A stretch of DNA of 64,000 nucleotides from Synechococcus sp. (lineage in GTDB: Bacteria > Cyanobacteriota > Cyanobacteriia > PCC-6307 > Cyanobiaceae). The DNA lies in the NCBI GenBank assembly GCA_047285805.1, contig JBJBCN010000002.1, forward strand, positions 416,001 through 480,000, in the 5' to 3' direction. Position numbers: made by a program. Position 1 is the first letter of the stretch; every line of letters starts with the position of its first letter. Positions 12,001 through 33,000 of the stretch are shown here, piece after piece.

Positions 12001-15000
12001 TTAGGTTCTTGCAGGAGCTTGATGCTGAGACCAATCGAGTGTCCACCGGCGTCAAAGGCGCCGCAGTCGGTGGCCTCCATGATTCCGGGCCCCCCGGCAT
12101 TGACGATGAAGTGCTTGCTGGCCTGCTGATCCGCTGAGACCAGATGGCTGAATTCGCGAATAATAGAGTTAAAAGTAAATACTACCGTCTCTTTATCCGA
12201 TAAACCGAGGGGTGGTAGTACTTCTATGCGAGTTGCGAGGTAGTTTCTATCTAGTACTGTTATCTAGGACTTAGATCACAGACCTACACGAGAATATAAA
12301 GACCAATTATAGGGAGGACAACGGGTTATTGCAGTACTTGTATACTTGTAAGTGTGATAAGAGTAGAGTTTTTCCAAGATCCAGAGACAAAGCAGGTCAA
12401 GCGGTTCCACCGCGATGAGAAGAGGTAGTCACAAGACCCCATGGTTTTCTGGAAACAGTCACTGCGATACCTGGCGAGTCTCCTTTTAAGGCCAGTGTGC
12501 AGCCCTATCGGGACGTTGCAGTTAACCATGGAGGGACCTCATCAAGAGTGCTAATAGCCTGTGGAGGTTCTTTGGGGATGCCAAGAAGAGCTGTAGCCAT
12601 CTACTACATTTAGGTTTAGGTACCAATGGTTCTCAGCCATCCCTGCAACTAAGTATTAGGGCCCCAGAAATTTGTACTGGGATTCACTGATAAGCCGCGT
12701 GCAGTATGTGAGTCGATAGCGAGGGCTGCAGTTACGAGTGGTGTTAGCGATAAGTGGATGGACTAGTGTTTTGCCTTCTCAAGAGCGGTAAGAATTTTTA
12801 TTAGGGGGAAAGTTCCTGTAATCGCTGTTAAAGTAGTTTGTGAACGTCATGTGGCTTGCGACCTTGAAATCGCGTCACGTAGCGGGCGAGCATTGATGGT
12901 TGTTGTAGGTCAACGCGACAATGAGATAGTCAGTGCTTTTTACTTTTGTAGTGACTGGGTGGTAAGGTATACGACTTTCTCAATAGAAACGAAGGATAGT
13001 GTTCATATGAACGGATTAGACTTTTCGAGAAGTATCCATATGATGGCGCCTGAGATCGGTTTCTACGGCGAAAAGTATCAATCGATTGACCATTCAGCGC
13101 TGTTCACAGGTACAGTCGTATTGAAAAAACAATTCAACATCTGAGTCCTGCGATCCTTATTATAAGTCATCCCATCATGTTTTGGTTCCTTGATATCGTA
13201 TTTGTGACGCTGATCGGCAGCTGCCACTGGCTAATAAAGACACTTTCCGCAAGACCAGGTGCCTTAAAGACGCAGTTATCTTCATTTGGTGGGGGCGCAG
13301 CAATATCATATGTGTTCCTACACATATTCCCGGAGATAGCAGTTGGAGGTGCGGAGATCAGCAAGGCATCTGGAATGCACACCTATATCCCAAGTGAAGC
13401 CCTAGAGAGTCTTATATTTCTCGTTGCACTCATTGGAGCAGTGCTCCCGTATCTAATTAAGTCAGCAAGTCTTCGTCTTCATACGATGAAGGACTATTAT
13501 GAAAACGCGAATCTGACTAGATTTGCCTTGATAAACTATCTTTACGCGTATTCAATGCCATCATTGCTTACCACAGGATATGTGTATGCGCTTTCGTTCA
13601 CTATTGCGATTGCAGGACATGTACTGCTGTCAGATAGGTCAATGCTAGCGAAGCACCAATCTTCTTATTATAAGAAACTAAGGTGGATAGGTAGCCTATC
13701 CCTTGTTATCGGGACTGTGCATACATTTGCACTTCATCCGATTTCGGAACTAAATCTCGCATATATCAAATCATTTATTGGTGGGAGCTTAATTACAAGT
13801 GTTTTGCAAGAAGAAATACCGAAGCCAGATTCTTCTAGAGTTAGCTTCTTTTTGAGTGGACTGATCCTTATGACAGCAATTTTGATAACAAGAGGATTTG
13901 TAAAATAAGGATACAAGGGACTATATTAAGTCATGGGCATGGTCATGGAAAAAGTCAGAGATAGGAACTGCAAAACGCTTGATTAAATCTTCAGGTAAGC
14001 AATGATCCATCAATTGATACTTAATCGATCACTAAAAAGTCATCTACCCTCAAGATGTCGTAGGTCAACAAAATCAAGTATAGAAGACGAGTATGACAAG
14101 TTATACGGATTCATCCCTTCAAAGTAACCGGATCGAGTAGAGGACTGAATATTAACCACAGACGAGAGAAGGGAGCTAAGATTACTGGTATAACCTGTCA
14201 TTGAGGAAGAATAGTCATTTAACCTCTGGACCAAGGTGGTAATATCCGAGAACCCAGCCTTCAAAGCGACAAGCGTGTCATAGAAAGCTTTTTGAGAAGA
14301 CTTAATAGATTGATCACTCGCAATAAGTTCATTTGAATAGTTAATATAATTAGAGTAATATTGATTACTAGACTGTATGGTGTCAAGTGCAGATTGCTTT
14401 GCAGACTCCTTGGTTGATGATGCAGTCCTCCTTTGTGACCGTGCTGAAAGTGCATCCGCTCCAGAATCGAATAATTTCCAACTCATTGTGATAGCAATAC
14501 TATTACCCCATCCTGAATTGTCAGATTGTGAATAGCTGTCAATAGGAAGAGTACCGCTGTAAGGGGCTTCGCCGACAGTCTTGTATGAATAGGATGTTGA
14601 TGGAGACCAACCAAAGGATAGACCAAAGCTTGGTAGATAGCTAGACAAATAGTAGTCTGATTGACGTAGATAACCTAAGTAGCTATAATAACTACTATAG
14701 ATAGTATCGGAATAGATAAGGCTTGACCGAACAATCTCTTCACGACCTAGAGAGCTGAAACCAATTAAATCAGATATAGTCTTACTCATAAAGAACTTGG
14801 CTGAAATGGTCAACTCGTCAGAAGAAATGCCTATGTTAGATGAAAGAGAGGTATAATAATTATTGAAAGAAATAATAGCAGAAGAGAGATTATTCTGATA
14901 TAGACGCAGTTGAGCCAAGGACTGGGCAACATCTGGGACCGCGAGAAGTCCAATTTGATACTGTGCAACTGTCACCTTAAGCGATTCTGAGGCCGAGTAG

Positions 15001-30000: not shown

Positions 30001-33000
30001 GCTTGACCCTCCTCATGGTTCCCTTTCTTTTTGCCATGGAGATTTTTTGCCTCAGAATCTTGTCATTGATCGTCATGACAATGTTTTTCTAATTGATTGG
30101 GAGTTGACAGGTCTCTCCATCCAGCAGTTTGACCTTGGCTGGCTCAATGCTTATTGCATTCTCTCTAGCCTCTCGCTCCCATTTGCTGAATCATCATATC
30201 CCCACGCACTTGATTATTTCACCAGATTTGGGCTGGTTCGATTTGCTTATCGAATCCTCCAGCAGTCGCTTCCTCAAAAGATGACTAGTGAGCGGATGCT
30301 CACTATCATCTCTCTTTTTAATAGATCTATCTGACGGCTATCTCCTTTTATCTTCCTGCCTTGTATTACCTGTGGAATCTGTTGGGACAAACTTTGTTTC
30401 TTGACCTTAACCTCAAGTGTAGCTTCTTTGCCCTTGCCTGCCTTTTTCTTGCTTACTCTTGGGCATCGCTTTGATGTCCTTTTCTTATTACGTACTCCCA
30501 CTTTTTGTTATTTGTCTCTCTCCGGTTCTGCGTATTTCATCATGCGCGGGTGTCGTCCATTAATCATAGACTCTCTCCTTATTCCTGTTTCACTCTCTTT
30601 ACTCTTTGCTATTTCTATTTCATACAACCTCTCTAATTCACTATGCACTCTAGCGCTTTCAGTGCTGATCTTTTGTGCGTCTTCTCTGTCGCTCACCTTT
30701 CGCTCCTGAGAGTTGTTTCTTTGCATAGCTTTTACGCTGCTGTTGCATTGTTGTTTAATTCCGCCCACTTAATGACGCCTTGCTCGTCATAGAATGTCTC
30801 TTGCAGTACTCCTGGGATGAGTCTATCCTTATCATTGCACATATCTATTGTAACTCCCTCTGTCTTTGTTCACTGACCCGAGACACCATAATATACAAGT
30901 CGGTCGCTAGTTGCTCTTGCGGCACTAACTAACCTGCTCTTTTGATCTGCTCTCGCTTCCTAGTCTTGCCTACACTTTCGTCGAGTGGAATCTGTATTGT
31001 TGCCCAGCCACTTTGGCCCCGGATCACAACTTCCCCCTGCTATCACGCTATTCTCCTCTCAGTCTTCCAGTGCAATTATAAAAACTCGTCGGACAGGGCT
31101 GACAAACCTTTGTCCCTTGCCTTGTTGAAGTGCTTACTCCATCGCAAGTCGCTCGAGCTTTCCCTTTAGGTAGCGAATGAACGATTGATGATCTAGCGGC
31201 CGACCGCTTACCCGCTCCACTAATTCCATAGCGTTGACACTGCGACCCAGCGGATAGACCCGTTCACCGAGCCATTGGCCTAGCGCTGCGTCTTTCCTGG
31301 AATCGAGCAGTGTTTCGATAGGGCCGATTTGAGCTTCTACCGTTTCGCTGATTTGTGCGCTTATCAGGTGGCCTAGCCCATATGAGGGGAAATAGCCAAA
31401 CATTCCCTCGCTCCAGTGCACGTCCTGGAGGCAGCCCTCTCGGTCCGTTTTTGGTTGGATGCCTAGGAGTTCTCTCATGCTCTGATTCCAGGCGCTGGGC
31501 AGCTCCTCAACCGGTAGTTCTCCCTCGATCAGCTGTAGCTCTAATTCGTAACGCAGTAGTACGTGTAGGCAGTAGCTGACCTCATCTGCCTCGACGCGTG
31601 TCAACCCTGGTTCGATTCGGTTGAGGTCCCGCCAGAAGGCTCTCGGGCTTCCCCAATAATCTCTGCCTAGGGCACTAGCGAAGCGGGGATGCCAGCGTTT
31701 GGCGATGGCTTCGCTTCGGGCTAATCGGTTCTCGTAGAAGAGGCTCTGACTTTCGTGAATAGCCATTGAGGTCGCTTCACCTAAGGGCCATGGGAACCAG
31801 TGCTCACCGGAGCGCGGTAGACCCTGCTCGTAGAGGCTGTGCCCCCATTCATGGGCGGTGGCCAGGAAAGCGGAAAATGGCTTACCGGTCACCACACGGG
31901 TGGTGATCCTGAAATCGTCCGGTCCGAGTGTGCTTGAGAACGGATGGGGTGAACGAGCTCGGTGGCATCGCTGTTTGCTGTACCCCCACTCCTGCAGCAA
32001 TCGATCGCATATCTTTTCCTGAGAAGCCTCATTCAGATCCCAGGCCTCACTGCTGCCCTTAGGAATCGATCGGGCACGCTCCAGCAACGGAGGTAGTTCC
32101 TGACGCAGCGGCAACAGCAAGCGGGAGATCTGTGCTTTGCTGATGTCGGGCTCAAATGGTTGGGCCAAGATTTCCCAGGGGCTGCGCTCTTGCCCAGATG
32201 GGTCTTGCTCGACGGGGGCCAGTTGGCGGGCCTGCTCTTGCCGCAGCCCAATCAGTGTGTTGAGAGCCGGCGCAAAACGCTCAAAGGCGTCGGCTTCTTT
32301 GGCGTCCTGCCAGAGGGCATAGCCATGGGCTTGCGCCTGGGCGAGTTGGCTCACCAGGGCCGGGTCCAGGCTGGACTGACGCTCCCATTCCCGGCGCAGG
32401 AGCTGGAGATTGCGCTGCTGCTCCGGGGTGGCTGAACCCGCGCTTTCTGCTTCCGCTGCGGCCAGTAGATCGGCGTATTTCGTTGAGGTCTGCCGTTCAT
32501 GGAGCTGAAGCGCCAACAGCGCCAACTGCTCACCCCGCCAGCTCGCCGATCTCGCTGGCATTGCCGTGTTTTGATCGAAGAAGAGCGTGCTCTGGATTCC
32601 CCCGAGCAGTTGGGTGACGTGCAGGTGATCGCGTAGCTGTGCGTAAGCCTGTCCTGCGCTCAAGGTGCTTGGGACAACGATCACGAAACCCTAGGCGTTG
32701 TGCTCAGTTCCAGTGGAACTCCATTGGGATAGCCCCTTCCAGGCTCACTTTGACTGGGCAGCTTTCTCCGGCTTTTTGCAGGAGCTTCCGTGCCTTGGCA
32801 TCTAGGTGGGCCGGCAGTTCAATCCAGACCTCTAAGTTGGCGATCTTGCGCGGCGCTTCGCTGGTCATGACTTTCTCCACCCGTGCCGTGCACCCCTCAA
32901 GACCCCATTCGTGCCGCTCGGCGACGATCCCCATGATCGTGAGGATGCAGGTGGTTAGCGCCGTGGCCACGAGGTCGGTGGGCGAGAAGCGCTCCCCTTG

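What a model noticed while it worked through the whole genome (the two positions that open the first line are those of the whole stretch)
12896..30334. Thioamide-type RiPP island with two YcaO-TfuA pairs, long TfuA proteins and an uncalled Nif11-leader precursor
A 17.5-kb island of 39-43% G+C (genome 61%) encodes two YcaO-TfuA pairs (g00539/g00538, g00536/g00535), a family-1 glycosyltransferase between them, a C39-peptidase ABC exporter, a second ABC protein, a membrane-fusion-like protein and a TolC-like OEP. The gene caller missed the substrate: a 69-aa ORF at C2:444541-444750 (-), just upstream of the first YcaO, with a Nif11-type leader ending in a double-glycine site (..LQKAAGG) and a 17-aa Cys-free core STVEWAGVGVAAGAAGA. 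Both TfuA proteins are twice the usual length: a TfuA fold (aa 1-220) plus a ~300-aa all-helical domain with no solved relative. Predicted product: an exported, backbone-thioamidated, possibly glycosylated Gly/Ala/Val-rich pe [...]
Evidence so far: Gene table and Pfam: TfuA i-E 4.8e-30 and 1.3e-30, YcaO 1e-33 and 4.8e-17, Peptidase_C39 3.5e-23. Precursor ORF from a six-frame scan, single copy (tblastn, call 34). G098 of the same genus has a syntenic low-G+C island with one YcaO-TfuA pair, the GT, both ABC genes, Coq4- and APH-like genes and a 54%-identical precursor (leader kept, ..KQAAGG then DTCGWVAVGVGVAALF), so the ORF is conserved and the second pair is extra here. TfuA in 5 of 401 Cyanobiaceae genomes incl. 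this one; relatives.tsv: TfuA in at least 13, YcaO in at least 22 of 822. Long-TfuA relatives: 22 proteins at E<=1e-3 in the 5.8e9-protein collection. Model of g00538 (14 sequences) pLDDT 83.5; the only PDB match is TfuA of M. [...]
(Added by a program. Inside this text positions count along the whole contig: contig position 416,001 is position 1 of the stretch shown here. "Call 12" and the like, gene names such as g00115 and contig names such as C1 are that model's own, and its searches are not shown. The text may have been shortened before it was handed on; [...] marks where a part breaks off. The agent that wrote the report below was given it as the finding of a first reader that could run no searches.)

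Follow-up and report, generated by a model that had tools for sequence, protein, structure and literature searches.

The report
Thioamide peptide gene island in picocyanobacterium
A 19-kb foreign DNA island in a small cyanobacterium carries the genes to make and export a short peptide that probably has sulfur in its backbone; gene clusters of this general type are catalogued, but no product is known.

Summary
Window 12144-31146 is a 19,003-bp island of 41.4% G+C in a 60.9% genome. One minus-strand operon encodes a 69-aa precursor, YcaO1, TfuA1, a GT1-family glycosyltransferase, YcaO2 and TfuA2. Beside it lie conserved Coq4-like and APH-like genes. A HlyD / C39-ABC / second ABC operon and a divergent TolC-like gene handle export.

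The precursor is a real gene. It has relatives in 9 other loci (11 further copies, 12 aligned). The leader is better conserved than the core, Thr54 and Trp57 are near-invariant, and a hairpin plus U-tract follows the stop codon in 9 of 9 loci.

- The leader is only sub-threshold Nif11-like.
- The second YcaO-TfuA pair is not an extra here. It is present in 7 of 10 loci and has co-diverged with pair 1. The G098 lineage most likely lost it.
- Long TfuA proteins are usual in cyanobacteria.

Best reading: a horizontally moving RiPP cluster for an exported, thioamidated Gly/Ala/Val-rich peptide. It is a new variant of a class already catalogued by genome mining (PMC8120280). There is no chemistry. 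Interest is moderate.

The parts
12144..31146 (.). Low-G+C genomic island, 19,003 bp and 41.4% G+C, inserted into a LOG-like gene between the pyrophosphatase and M32 carboxypeptidase genes
   Evidence: The composition profile shows the drop in G+C. Homology to the G098 flanks ends at window 12143 and resumes at 31147.
11639..12158 (-). Remnant of a LOG-family gene: only the C-terminal ~180 codons survive, spread over three frames. This marks the left junction of the island.
   Evidence: tblastn with the intact 342-aa G098 gene aligned residues 161-340 in three pieces at 67-71% identity. Residues 1-160 found no match.
13177..13908 (+). 243-aa hydrophobic protein with no family match; a possible immunity or membrane protein. 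It has no counterpart in the related loci.
   Evidence: It gave 0 Pfam and 0 NCBIfam hits. It has three TM-like segments. BLASTP found no relative in 22 related loci.
14040..15824 (-). TolC-like outer-membrane efflux protein, 594 aa
   Evidence: Pfam OEP scores 53.6 bits against a cut-off of 22. It is 52% identical to its G098 counterpart.
15836..17077 (+). HlyD-type membrane-fusion protein of the NHLM bacteriocin-export type
   Evidence: TIGR03794 scores E 7.3e-43, 147 bits, just below the cut-off of 156.2.
17074..19272 (+). ABC exporter with an N-terminal C39 peptidase domain; the predicted leader-cleaving exporter
   Evidence: Peptidase_C39 scores 80 bits, and ABC_membrane and ABC_tran also match. 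The best NCBIfam match is TIGR03796 at E 2.6e-117, below its equivalog cut-off. The sequence contains Q..ECG and HWVVL..DP; assigning these to the catalytic Gln/Cys/His/Asp is recalled, not tested.
19269..22001 (+). Second ABC permease/ATPase, 910 aa, with an unassigned ~350-aa N-terminal region
   Evidence: The best NCBIfam match is TIGR03797 at E 2.6e-63, covering residues 353-877 and below the cut-off. Pfam ABC_membrane and ABC_tran also match.
21982..23337 (-). TfuA2, 451 aa from the ATG at 23337: a TfuA domain plus a ~250-aa helical C-terminal extension
   Evidence: Pfam TfuA scores 103.7 bits. The ATG overlaps the YcaO2 stop as ATGA. Orthologues occur in L022, L024, L027 and L029.
23334..24356 (-). 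YcaO2, 340 aa, a divergent YcaO
   Evidence: Pfam YcaO scores 76.2 bits and TIGR03266 E 2.1e-16. It falls in a distinct clade with 100/100 support. Two E-x-x-E-R motifs are present.
24349..25725 (-). GT1-family (GT-B) glycosyltransferase, 458 aa, translationally coupled between the two pairs
   Evidence: Glycos_transf_1 scores 37.2 bits against a cut-off of 26.4. Its start overlaps the TfuA1 stop by 10 nt and its stop overlaps the YcaO2 start by 8 nt. Orthologues occur in G098, L014, L015, L017 and L022.
25716..27287 (-). TfuA1, 523 aa: a TfuA fold (residues 1-~215) plus a ~310-aa helical C-terminal domain found only in this family
   Evidence: Pfam TfuA scores 102.2 bits. The model has pLDDT 83.5. 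VIA gives Z 23.9 to 6xp8 over residues 2-214. A profile of the C-domain found 18 proteins among 1.84 billion.
27287..28468 (-). YcaO1, 393 aa
   Evidence: Pfam YcaO scores 138.2 bits and TIGR03266 E 2.5e-35. The closest solved relatives are MJ1094 (6pe3/6peu, E 6.3e-10) and the YcaO of 6ci7.
28481..28516 (-). Hairpin with a 15-bp stem followed by a run of 10 U, lying between the precursor stop and the YcaO1 start; a terminator- or attenuator-like element
   Evidence: Folding gives -20.4 kcal/mol, z -2.74, and the pattern scan also found it. A hairpin plus U-tract sits at the same place in 9 of 9 loci despite differing sequences.
28541..28750 (-). Precursor peptide, 69 aa: a 52-aa leader ending ..KAAGG and the 17-aa core STVEWAGVGVAAGAAGA
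   Evidence: The ORF is. It is single copy. In the 12-sequence alignment M1, G51 and G52 are invariant and T54 and W57 near-invariant. Mean pairwise identity is 55% in the leader and 37% in the core.
28821..29483 (-). Coq4-like protein, 220 aa, with an HDxxH...E motif
   Evidence: Pfam Coq4 scores 39.9 bits against a cut-off of 22.9. PDB 3msq matches at E 3.6e-14. The motif is invariant in 6 of 6 orthologues.
29531..30334 (+). APH-like small kinase, 267 aa
   Evidence: Pfam APH scores 37.5 bits against a cut-off of 23.2. HGD..QN and DWE are invariant in 5 of 5 orthologues.

Best explanation
The island is a horizontally acquired biosynthetic gene cluster for a ribosomally made, post-translationally modified peptide (RiPP).

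**Proposed pathway.**
1. The 69-aa precursor is translated from the first gene of the minus-strand operon. A conserved hairpin plus U-tract after its stop codon probably sets precursor mRNA above enzyme mRNA (inferred).
2. Two anciently diverged, co-inherited YcaO-TfuA pairs convert backbone amides of the Cys-free Gly/Ala/Val-rich core into thioamides.
   - By analogy with studied systems, YcaO uses ATP to activate the amide oxygen, and TfuA supplies sulfide by hydrolysing a thiocarboxylated ThiS-type carrier.
   - The island encodes no such carrier. Three ThiS-family genes lie elsewhere in the genome.
   - The two pairs most likely serve different sites (inferred).
3. In this sub-family a GT1 glycosyltransferase, an APH-like kinase and a Coq4-like metal-motif protein add further, unknown modifications. 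The near-invariant Thr at core position 2 is the obvious hydroxyl target (guess).
4. The C39-peptidase ABC transporter cuts after Gly-Gly and exports the product, working with the second ABC protein, the HlyD-type adaptor and the TolC-like channel.

**What is shown and what is inferred.** The gene content, its conservation, the precursor family and the horizontal mobility are shown. The chemistry is inferred.
For: - **Gene identities.** Pfam and NCBIfam hits are. For both YcaOs the best NCBIfam family is the McrA-glycine thioamidation YcaO (TIGR03266), and for both TfuAs it is the matching TfuA (NF033432), all below the equivalog cut-offs. The closest solved YcaO is MJ1094.
- **TfuA fold.** VIA gives Z 23.9 to 6xp8.
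- **Operon structure.** Reading frames overlap along precursor-YcaO1-TfuA1-GT-YcaO2-TfuA2.
- **Exclusivity.** TfuA and YcaO occur nowhere else in the genome.
- **Precursor family.** There are 12 sequences from 10 loci, with invariant GG, a leader at 55% and a core at 37% mean pairwise identity, and 10 of 12 cores free of Cys. A hairpin plus U-tract follows the precursor in 9 of 9 loci.
- **Two pairs.** YcaO1 and YcaO2 form separate clades (99/100 and 100/100) with matching inner topology. A YcaO2 gene follows pair 1 in 7 of the 10 loci where it could be seen.
- **Accessory genes.** The Coq4-like and APH-like motifs are invariant in 6 of 6 and 5 of 5 orthologues.
- **Sulfur carrier.** Three ThiS-family genes are present in the genome. 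TfuA's role as a hydrolase of thiocarboxylated ThiS is stated in passages of PMC13063428 and PMC8153245.
- **Horizontal origin.** The island is 41.4% G+C against 60.9% for the genome. It disrupts a LOG-like gene. Related islands sit at two other sites in close relatives.
Against: - There is no chemistry and no expression data.
- The equivalog cut-offs of NCBIfam are not reached for any enzyme or transporter. The proteins are therefore distant members of their families.
- YcaO2 has no solved relative at E <= 0.001 by sequence, and its Pfam match covers only profile positions 76-320.
- The island carries no dedicated ThiS or ThiF, unlike another TfuA cluster of the same bacterial family (L012).
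- The core contains Ser and Thr, which a YcaO could in principle cyclise instead.
- Nothing shows that both pairs, the GT, the kinase or the Coq4-like protein act on this peptide.
Confidence: 0.7

Rival explanations
1. The YcaO enzymes do not make thioamides. Instead they cyclodehydrate Ser53/Thr54 to (methyl)oxazolines, or form an amidine, giving a linear azoline- or amidine-containing peptide.
For: The core begins with Ser-Thr, and Thr54 is near-invariant. TIGR03604, the azoline-forming SagD type, also matches both YcaOs weakly (E 1.3e-16 and 1.5e-10). YcaO clusters of the azoline type have been described in marine Synechococcus (PMC10783134, passages read).
Against: Each YcaO is translationally coupled to a TfuA. 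Passages of PMC13063428 and PMC8153245 tie TfuA to sulfide delivery. The McrA-thioamidation YcaO family outscores the SagD type for both proteins. No Pfam or NCBIfam hit among the island's ORFs is to an E1-like/Ocin-ThiF partner or a SagB-type dehydrogenase. Most of the core is Gly/Ala/Val, which cannot cyclise.
Confidence: 0.08
2. The cluster is real, but the island is a silent or decaying passenger in this strain, or only pair 1 acts on this peptide while pair 2 and the GT, kinase and Coq4-like genes serve another substrate.
For: The island is foreign DNA that broke a host gene. A close lineage does without pair 2. No RNA data exist. The genome holds only one precursor for two enzyme pairs.
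Against: All 13 island genes are open and full length relative to their orthologues. Catalytic motifs are kept. The gene order pair 1-GT-pair 2 is conserved with overlapping reading frames in L022 and L017. The two YcaO clades have co-diverged, which argues for a shared function.
Confidence: 0.15
3. The 69-aa ORF is not the substrate but a small helical regulator or immunity protein, and the true substrate lies elsewhere.
For: The ORF matches no family above a curated cut-off.
Against: It always sits next to YcaO1. It ends in GG followed by a short variable tail. One locus (L029) has it as three or four tandem copies with different tails, which is the usual pattern for RiPP precursors. A C39 double-glycine peptidase exporter is encoded alongside.
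Confidence: 0.04

Closest known systems
TfuA-YcaO gene clusters with Nif11-like precursors, catalogued by genome mining (Malit et al. 2021, PMC8120280; passages and one held supplement searched)
   Same: Both have an adjacent YcaO-TfuA pair, a precursor with a GG cleavage motif and a Nif11-like leader, dedicated NHLM-type transporters, and a family-4 glycosyltransferase (named in the legend of that paper's figure 4). No product is known in either case.
   Different: That survey names Anabaena, Desulforegula, Rhizobium, Simkania and Ruegeria, and places cyanobacterial clusters in Nostocales, Oscillatoriophycideae and Gloeobacteria. The words Synechococcus, Cyanobium and Prochlorococcus do not occur in the held supplement. 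Here there are two co-diverged pairs, a leader that fails the Nif11 cut-offs, a Coq4-like/APH-like module, and a low-G+C island in a picocyanobacterium.
Thioamitides (thioviridamide, thiostreptamide S4) and thiovarsolins of Actinobacteria (PMC8153245 passages; PMC6511847 search listing only)
   Same: A YcaO plus TfuA installs several backbone thioamides on an Ala/Val-rich core. An APH-like phosphotransferase (pfam01636) belongs to the thioamitide pathway.
   Different: This core has no Cys. No HopA1-like partner, no cysteine decarboxylase and no AviCys macrocycle are possible. Here there are two pairs instead of one iterative pair, double-glycine export, and a Gram-negative host.
McrA thioglycine system of methanogens (YcaO plus TfuA; TIGR03266 and NF033432; PDB 6xp8, 6pe3)
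   Same: These are the best-scoring families and the closest solved structures for the enzymes here. The proposed chemistry is the same.
   Different: The substrate there is a large enzyme subunit, not an exported peptide. The archaeal TfuA is ~220 aa and has no C-terminal domain. All scores here are far below the equivalog cut-offs.
Prochlorosins of Prochlorococcus and Synechococcus (PMC10783134, passages)
   Same: Both are picocyanobacterial RiPPs with helical leaders that end in GG, and both use C39-type export.
   Different: Prochlorosins are lanthipeptides made by ProcM from many true Nif11 precursors. Here the enzymes are YcaO-TfuA, the precursor is single, and the family profile matches none of this genome's Nif11-type ORFs at E < 1.

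Membership tests
YcaO-TfuA thioamide-type RiPP cluster | A YcaO-domain protein scoring over the family cut-off | tested here: met
   PF02624 scores 138.2 and 76.2 bits against a cut-off of 25.7.
YcaO-TfuA thioamide-type RiPP cluster | A TfuA protein encoded next to each YcaO | tested here: met
   PF07812 scores 102.2 and 103.7 bits against a cut-off of 30. The reading frames overlap. The fold gives Z 23.9 to 6xp8.
YcaO-TfuA thioamide-type RiPP cluster | A short precursor peptide encoded in the cluster | tested here: met
   A 69-aa ORF lies 72 nt upstream of YcaO1 and is conserved in 9 other loci.
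YcaO-TfuA thioamide-type RiPP cluster | A thioamide in the product | not testable with these tools
   This needs mass spectrometry of the expressed product.
McrA-glycine thioamidation YcaO/TfuA equivalogs (TIGR03266, NF033432) | A score over the equivalog cut-off | tested here: not met
   Scores are 122.2 and 59.9 bits against 365, and 113.4 and 122.2 bits against 235.2. These are the best-hit families only.
Nif11-like leader peptide precursors (TIGR03798 / PF07862) | A score over the curated cut-off | tested here: not met
   Scores are 13.6 bits against 32.3 and 15.8 bits against 23.8. Of 12 family members, 0 exceed a cut-off; 7 (Pfam) and 4 (NCBIfam) give weak hits. hhalign against nine Nif11 domains of this genome gave probability 1.9% over 16 columns.
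Nif11-like leader peptide precursors (TIGR03798 / PF07862) | A leader ending in a Gly-Gly cleavage motif | tested here: met
   G51 and G52 are invariant in 12 of 12 sequences.
NHLM/NHLP bacteriocin export system (TIGR03794, TIGR03796, TIGR03797) | All three components score over their equivalog cut-offs | tested here: not met
   Each family is the best hit, but scores are 147 against 156.2, 392.9 against 853.3, and 214.6 against 709.4 bits. The architecture is the same: adaptor, C39-ABC and a second ABC in one operon.
Thioamitides | A C-terminal Cys for an AviCys macrocycle, a HopA1-like protein paired with the phosphotransferase, and a cysteine decarboxylase | tested here: not met
   The core has no Cys. 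No island ORF gave a Pfam hit to HopA1 or to a flavoprotein decarboxylase.
Peptidase C39 double-glycine exporters | An N-terminal C39 domain on an ABC transporter | tested here: met
   PF03412 scores 80 bits over residues 8-137, with ABC_membrane and ABC_tran following. Assigning the catalytic residues rests on recalled motifs.

The most novel reading that the evidence does not exclude
This would be a distinct, undescribed RiPP class of aquatic picocyanobacteria, with four features.
- The product is a microcin-like, Cys-free Gly/Ala-rich peptide carrying several thioamides.
- Two site-specialised YcaO-TfuA pairs that have co-evolved since before the family split install those thioamides.
- A previously unseen Coq4-like / APH-like / GT module decorates the conserved Thr.
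- The family-specific helical C-terminal domain of TfuA takes the place of an RRE as the leader-recognition element.

The cluster would move between strains as a low-G+C cassette and act in competition between picocyanobacteria.
Probability: 0.25. Interest if true: 0.65.

Novelty: new variant of a known kind. Interest (0 to 1): 0.5.

Why it matters
**Chemistry.**
- Thioamide peptides with known products come almost entirely from Actinobacteria and are few.
- A Gram-negative, photosynthetic, planktonic source would widen that chemistry.
- This cluster has two dedicated enzyme pairs acting on one 17-residue Cys-free core, plus three unassigned tailoring genes.
- That gives a compact system for asking how YcaO-TfuA pairs choose their sites.

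**Ecology.** Diverged versions of the same cassette sit at three different chromosomal sites in closely related picocyanobacteria, always as low-G+C DNA. That pattern points to frequent exchange of an allelopathy- or signalling-type trait in these abundant primary producers.

**Limit.** The class as such was already predicted by genome mining, so this is a good natural-product lead and not a new principle.

Tried and rejected
- **C-terminal domain of TfuA1.**
  - Folded alone from a 12-row alignment, it gave a poor model (pLDDT 56.7), so no fold search was made with it.
  - With the full-length model, both Foldseek and VIA-wide rows cover only residues 1-~220. The C-domain's fold is therefore untested, not shown to be new.
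  - The protein atlas gave no usable hit for it.
  - For the TfuA2 C-part the atlas gave only 0.77-score leads, all to ~450-aa TfuA clusters.
  - hhalign of the TfuA1 C-domain family against the TfuA2 family found nothing (probability 0.1%).
- **Predicted complex of TfuA1 with the precursor.** The verdict was weak support. The score was 0.50 (three runs: 0.50, 0.24, 0.52) against a best control of 0.00. The mark was reached by 116 of 157 solved complexes and 2 of 215 mismatched pairs. At 0.60 or under, however, only 18 of those 157 solved complexes passed, and so did both mismatches that passed. The runs agree in at least 21% of contacts and the partner's pLDDT is at least 65. No interface was given. 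I use this only as a lead for the idea that the leader binds TfuA.
- **Expression.** No RNA holder was listed.
- **Rfam.** The scan of 11000-32000 at E <= 0.1 gave 0 matches.
- **tRNA.** None was found in the window.
- **Island ends.** No terminal direct or inverted repeats were found at the ends; only short pairs of chance size turned up. No Pfam or NCBIfam hit among the island ORFs searched is to an integrase or transposase.
- **Promoter scan.** It was uninformative: 24 sites against 23.4 expected.
- **Genome-contig scan.** It returned a single distant locus, L013.
- **Earlier notes of this scan.** By place and by sequence they held nothing for this genome region.
- **Considered and rejected.** Membership in the thioamitides was rejected because there is no Cys, HopA1 or decarboxylase. 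A recent tandem duplication as the origin of pair 2 was rejected because the pairs are only 24-28% identical.

Full report
**1. What is there**

The window has a sharply bounded low-G+C block. 1-kb windows from 13 to 31 kb have 38-44% G+C, against 58-67% on either side. Aligning the syntenic region of the congeneric genome G098 places the junctions at window 12143/12144 and 31146/31147. The island is therefore 19,003 bp at 41.4% G+C, in a genome of 60.9%.

In G098 an intact 342-aa LOG-family gene lies between the pyrophosphatase and M32 carboxypeptidase genes. In the window only its last ~180 codons remain, at 11639-12158 and spread over three frames. The island thus replaced the 5' part of a host gene. 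No tRNA, no Rfam match, no integrase or transposase hit and no terminal repeats were found.

**2. Genes**

The minus-strand operon runs as follows:
- precursor, 28541-28750
- YcaO1, 27287-28468
- TfuA1, 25716-27287
- GT1-family glycosyltransferase, 24349-25725
- YcaO2, 23334-24356
- TfuA2, 21982-23337

Successive reading frames overlap by 1, 10, 8 and 4 nt. The last overlap is an ATGA if TfuA2 starts at the Met that aligns with other TfuA N-termini.

Upstream lie a Coq4-like gene (28821-29483, -) and a divergent APH-like kinase gene (29531-30334, +). On the plus strand a second operon encodes a HlyD-type adaptor, a C39-peptidase ABC transporter and a second ABC protein. Their best NCBIfam hits are the three NHLM bacteriocin-export families, all below the equivalog cut-offs. 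A TolC-like gene diverges from that operon. A 243-aa hydrophobic protein without relatives sits at the left end.

TfuA and YcaO occur nowhere else in the genome.

**3. The precursor is a real gene**

BLAST and alignment found relatives next to YcaO1 orthologues in G098 and in eight metagenome loci. With the window's copy this gave 12 sequences to align. L024 holds a further, truncated copy that was left out of the alignment, and one locus (L029) has three or four tandem copies.

The features that mark it as a RiPP precursor are:
- The leader is 52 or 56 aa long and ends in an invariant Gly-Gly.
- Mean pairwise identity is 55% in the leader and 37% in the core.
- Cores are 16-27 aa, 10 of 12 have no Cys, and they are Gly/Ala/Val-rich.
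- Near-invariant Thr54 and Trp57 are followed by a small-residue tail.
- Directly after the stop codon, a G+C-rich hairpin and a U-tract occur in 9 of 9 loci examined, with unrelated sequences. In the window this is a 15-bp stem at -20.4 kcal/mol, z -2.7, followed by 10 U.
- In four loci the conserved MIET start of YcaO1 follows within a few bases of the U-tract.

A profile of the family finds only this one copy in the genome.

**4. Is the leader Nif11-type?**

Only weakly. Nif11 is the sole family that matches, but at 15.8 bits (Pfam cut-off 23.8) and 13.6 bits (NCBIfam cut-off 32.3). Weak hits occur in 7 of 12 family members with Pfam and 4 of 12 with NCBIfam, and none exceeds a cut-off.

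The genome has 11 TIGR03798 matches at E <= 0.01, and this ORF is not one of them. A profile-profile comparison with nine of those aligns only the first 16 residues (probability 1.9%). The family profile matches none of them at E < 1.

I therefore treat the leader as an unnamed family with a Nif11-like first helix.

**5. The family and the second pair**

Gene-by-gene comparison of 22 loci shows two sub-families.

- Sub-family A comprises the window, G098, and L014 to L022. It carries the GT, the Coq4-like gene and the APH-like gene. Its cores read x-T-x-x-W-V-x-V-G-V...
- Sub-family B comprises L023 to L027 and L029. It lacks those three genes, and its leaders are 4 residues longer.

A YcaO2 gene follows TfuA1 or the GT, with TfuA2 after it where the contig runs far enough, in the window, L017, L022, L024, L026, L027 and L029. 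That is 7 of the 10 loci in which that region can be seen. The three loci without it (G098, L014, L015) are one close lineage.

A maximum-likelihood tree of 23 YcaO sequences was drawn with a midpoint root. It gives a YcaO1 clade (99/100) and a YcaO2 clade (100/100) with the same internal grouping. The G098/L014 lineage is nested in sub-family A as sister to the window, with 94/90 support, which is not a starred branch. Long branches (WIN_Y2, L022_Y2 and the outgroups) call for caution.

The pairs are only 24-28% identical to each other. The simplest reading is an old two-pair cluster from which the G098 lineage lost pair 2. That is the opposite of 'the second pair is extra here'.

**6. Mobility**

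The window and G098 have flanks that are 78-96% identical, but island proteins only 28-57% identical. The G098 island sits about 2.4 kb to the right, at window-equivalent ~33600, and is inverted. L022 has the same full architecture as the window. Its high-G+C flank is 80-89% identical at protein level to a different part of this genome, C2 1.003-1.007 Mb.

Several other metagenome loci also show a low-G+C cluster against 54-69% G+C flanks. L024 and L029 are 25-27% G+C throughout. Diverged versions of one cassette have therefore entered close relatives at three or more sites.

**7. The long TfuA proteins**

The TfuA1 model (pLDDT 83.5) matches M. acetivorans TfuA over residues 2-214: Foldseek E 4.3e-11, and VIA Z 23.9 with rmsd 2.5 over 207 residues. 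The helical remainder is effectively untested, because the isolated domain folded poorly (pLDDT 56.7).

A profile of that domain finds 18 proteins among 1.84 billion representatives. They are long TfuAs of about 440 to 555 aa, or shorter proteins that match only part of the domain. It is not detectably related to the TfuA2 extension.

Length as such is not unusual. In a sample of 401 cyanobacterial genomes, 10 have TfuA, and in the 9 others the frame is 457-607 aa. TfuA2 relatives of 400-500 aa are common in other bacteria.

A predicted complex of TfuA1 with the precursor gave weak support only. The score was 0.50 against a best control of 0.00. The mark was reached by 116 of 157 solved complexes and 2 of 215 mismatched pairs. 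At 0.60 or under, only 18 of those 157 solved complexes passed, and so did both passing mismatches. The runs agree in at least 21% of contacts and the partner's pLDDT is at least 65. The idea that the extension recognises the leader is a lead, not a finding.

**8. Mechanism**

*Shown.* Domain identities, operon structure, conservation, and the closeness of both YcaOs and both TfuAs to the McrA-thioamidation families. Both YcaOs keep two Glu-x-x-Glu(-Arg) motifs; their role in ATP/Mg binding is recalled from the YcaO literature, not tested here.

*From papers* (passages read). Thioamide-forming YcaOs outside high-sulfide habitats use a thiocarboxylated ThiS homologue and a TfuA hydrolase. In thiostreptamide biosynthesis one YcaO-TfuA pair installs four thioamides first, and an APH-like phosphotransferase takes part in Thr dehydration together with a HopA1-like protein.

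*Bearing on this island.* It has no ThiS or ThiF, but the genome has three ThiS-family genes. The APH-like protein keeps HGD..QN and DWE in 5 of 5 orthologues. The Coq4-like protein keeps HDxxH...E in 6 of 6, and its nearest solved relatives are two cyanobacterial Coq4-like proteins of unknown function. There is no HopA1 homologue.

*Inferred.* The two pairs thioamidate different parts of the core. The kinase and/or the GT act on the conserved Thr or Ser. The C39 domain cuts after Gly52 during export.

**9. Comparison with what is known**

Malit et al. 2021 (PMC8120280, passages) already list TfuA clusters with Nif11-like precursors, a GG motif, matching transporters and a family-4 glycosyltransferase. 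They place them in Anabaena and several Proteobacteria, and they note 18 cyanobacterial TfuA clusters from Nostocales, Oscillatoriophycideae and Gloeobacteria.

The one supplement held as text does not contain the words Synechococcus, Cyanobium or Prochlorococcus. Supplementary Table 3 itself was not available. A 2023 survey of RiPPs in marine Synechococcus describes only azoline-type YcaO clusters and, going by the search, does not mention TfuA (PMC10783134, passages).

Searches for TfuA with Synechococcus, YcaO with picocyanobacteria, TfuA with cyanobacteria and precursor peptides, and TfuA with C-terminal domain found no description of this family. Earlier AI notes of this scan report similar Nif11-like/YcaO-TfuA/NHLM clusters with Ala-rich cores in planktonic Actinobacteria. 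They are unchecked leads. They suggest the theme is widespread in aquatic bacteria.

**10. Verdict**

This is a new variant of a class already predicted by genome mining, with no product known.

Its distinctive points are:
- two co-diverged YcaO-TfuA pairs on one short Cys-free core
- a conserved GT / Coq4-like / APH-like module
- a family-specific TfuA extension
- repeated insertion as low-G+C DNA in picocyanobacteria

Interest is 0.5.

Noticed in passing
window 11639-12158 (-): This is a truncated, frameshifted remnant of a LOG-family (lysine-decarboxylase-like) gene that is intact (342 aa) in G098. The genome has a second, 41%-identical copy at C2 ~1,112,247-1,112,717.
   Followed up: partly
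L012 (G248) 5708-12086: Another genome of the same bacterial family, at 34% G+C, has an unrelated TfuA cluster. It has a short TfuA (231 aa), a YcaO, a ThiF/MoeB-rhodanese protein, a 102-aa protein ending ..IAGG that looks like a ThiS-type carrier, a large unassigned 533-aa protein, and an NHLM-type HlyD/ABC/ABC operon. It shows a dedicated sulfur relay, which the window's island lacks.
   Followed up: no
L029 7129-7980 (-): The fourth tandem precursor-like gene of this locus runs on into a 284-aa ORF. Its C-terminal part looks like a 2OG-Fe(II)/prolyl-hydroxylase-type domain. The core carries a repeated 'APDGLTGIDF' unit and has no GG site. It may be a fusion, a read-through or an assembly artefact.
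   Followed up: no
L024 1482-1643 (+): The precursor homologue stops right at the end of the leader (..LLKATA), so it has no core. It is either a broken copy or a leader-only protein.
   Followed up: no
window 12160-13176: About 1 kb at the left end of the island has 42-47% G+C and no ORF with a family match. No Rfam hit was found. Its function is unknown.
   Followed up: partly
window 30401-30709 (+): A 102-aa very hydrophobic Leu/Ser/Phe-rich ORF lies just inside the right end of the island. It has no family match and no counterpart in G098. It may be non-coding.
   Followed up: no
window 19269-20320 (+): The second ABC protein has an N-terminal region of ~350 aa with no Pfam or NCBIfam match. 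The region is conserved in length in G098 and in L014, L019 and L022 (899-934 aa proteins).
   Followed up: no
G000 C2 and C3 (outside the window): The genome has 11 matches to the Nif11-leader model TIGR03798 at E <= 0.01, two of them over the cut-off. None is related to the island's precursor.
   Followed up: partly
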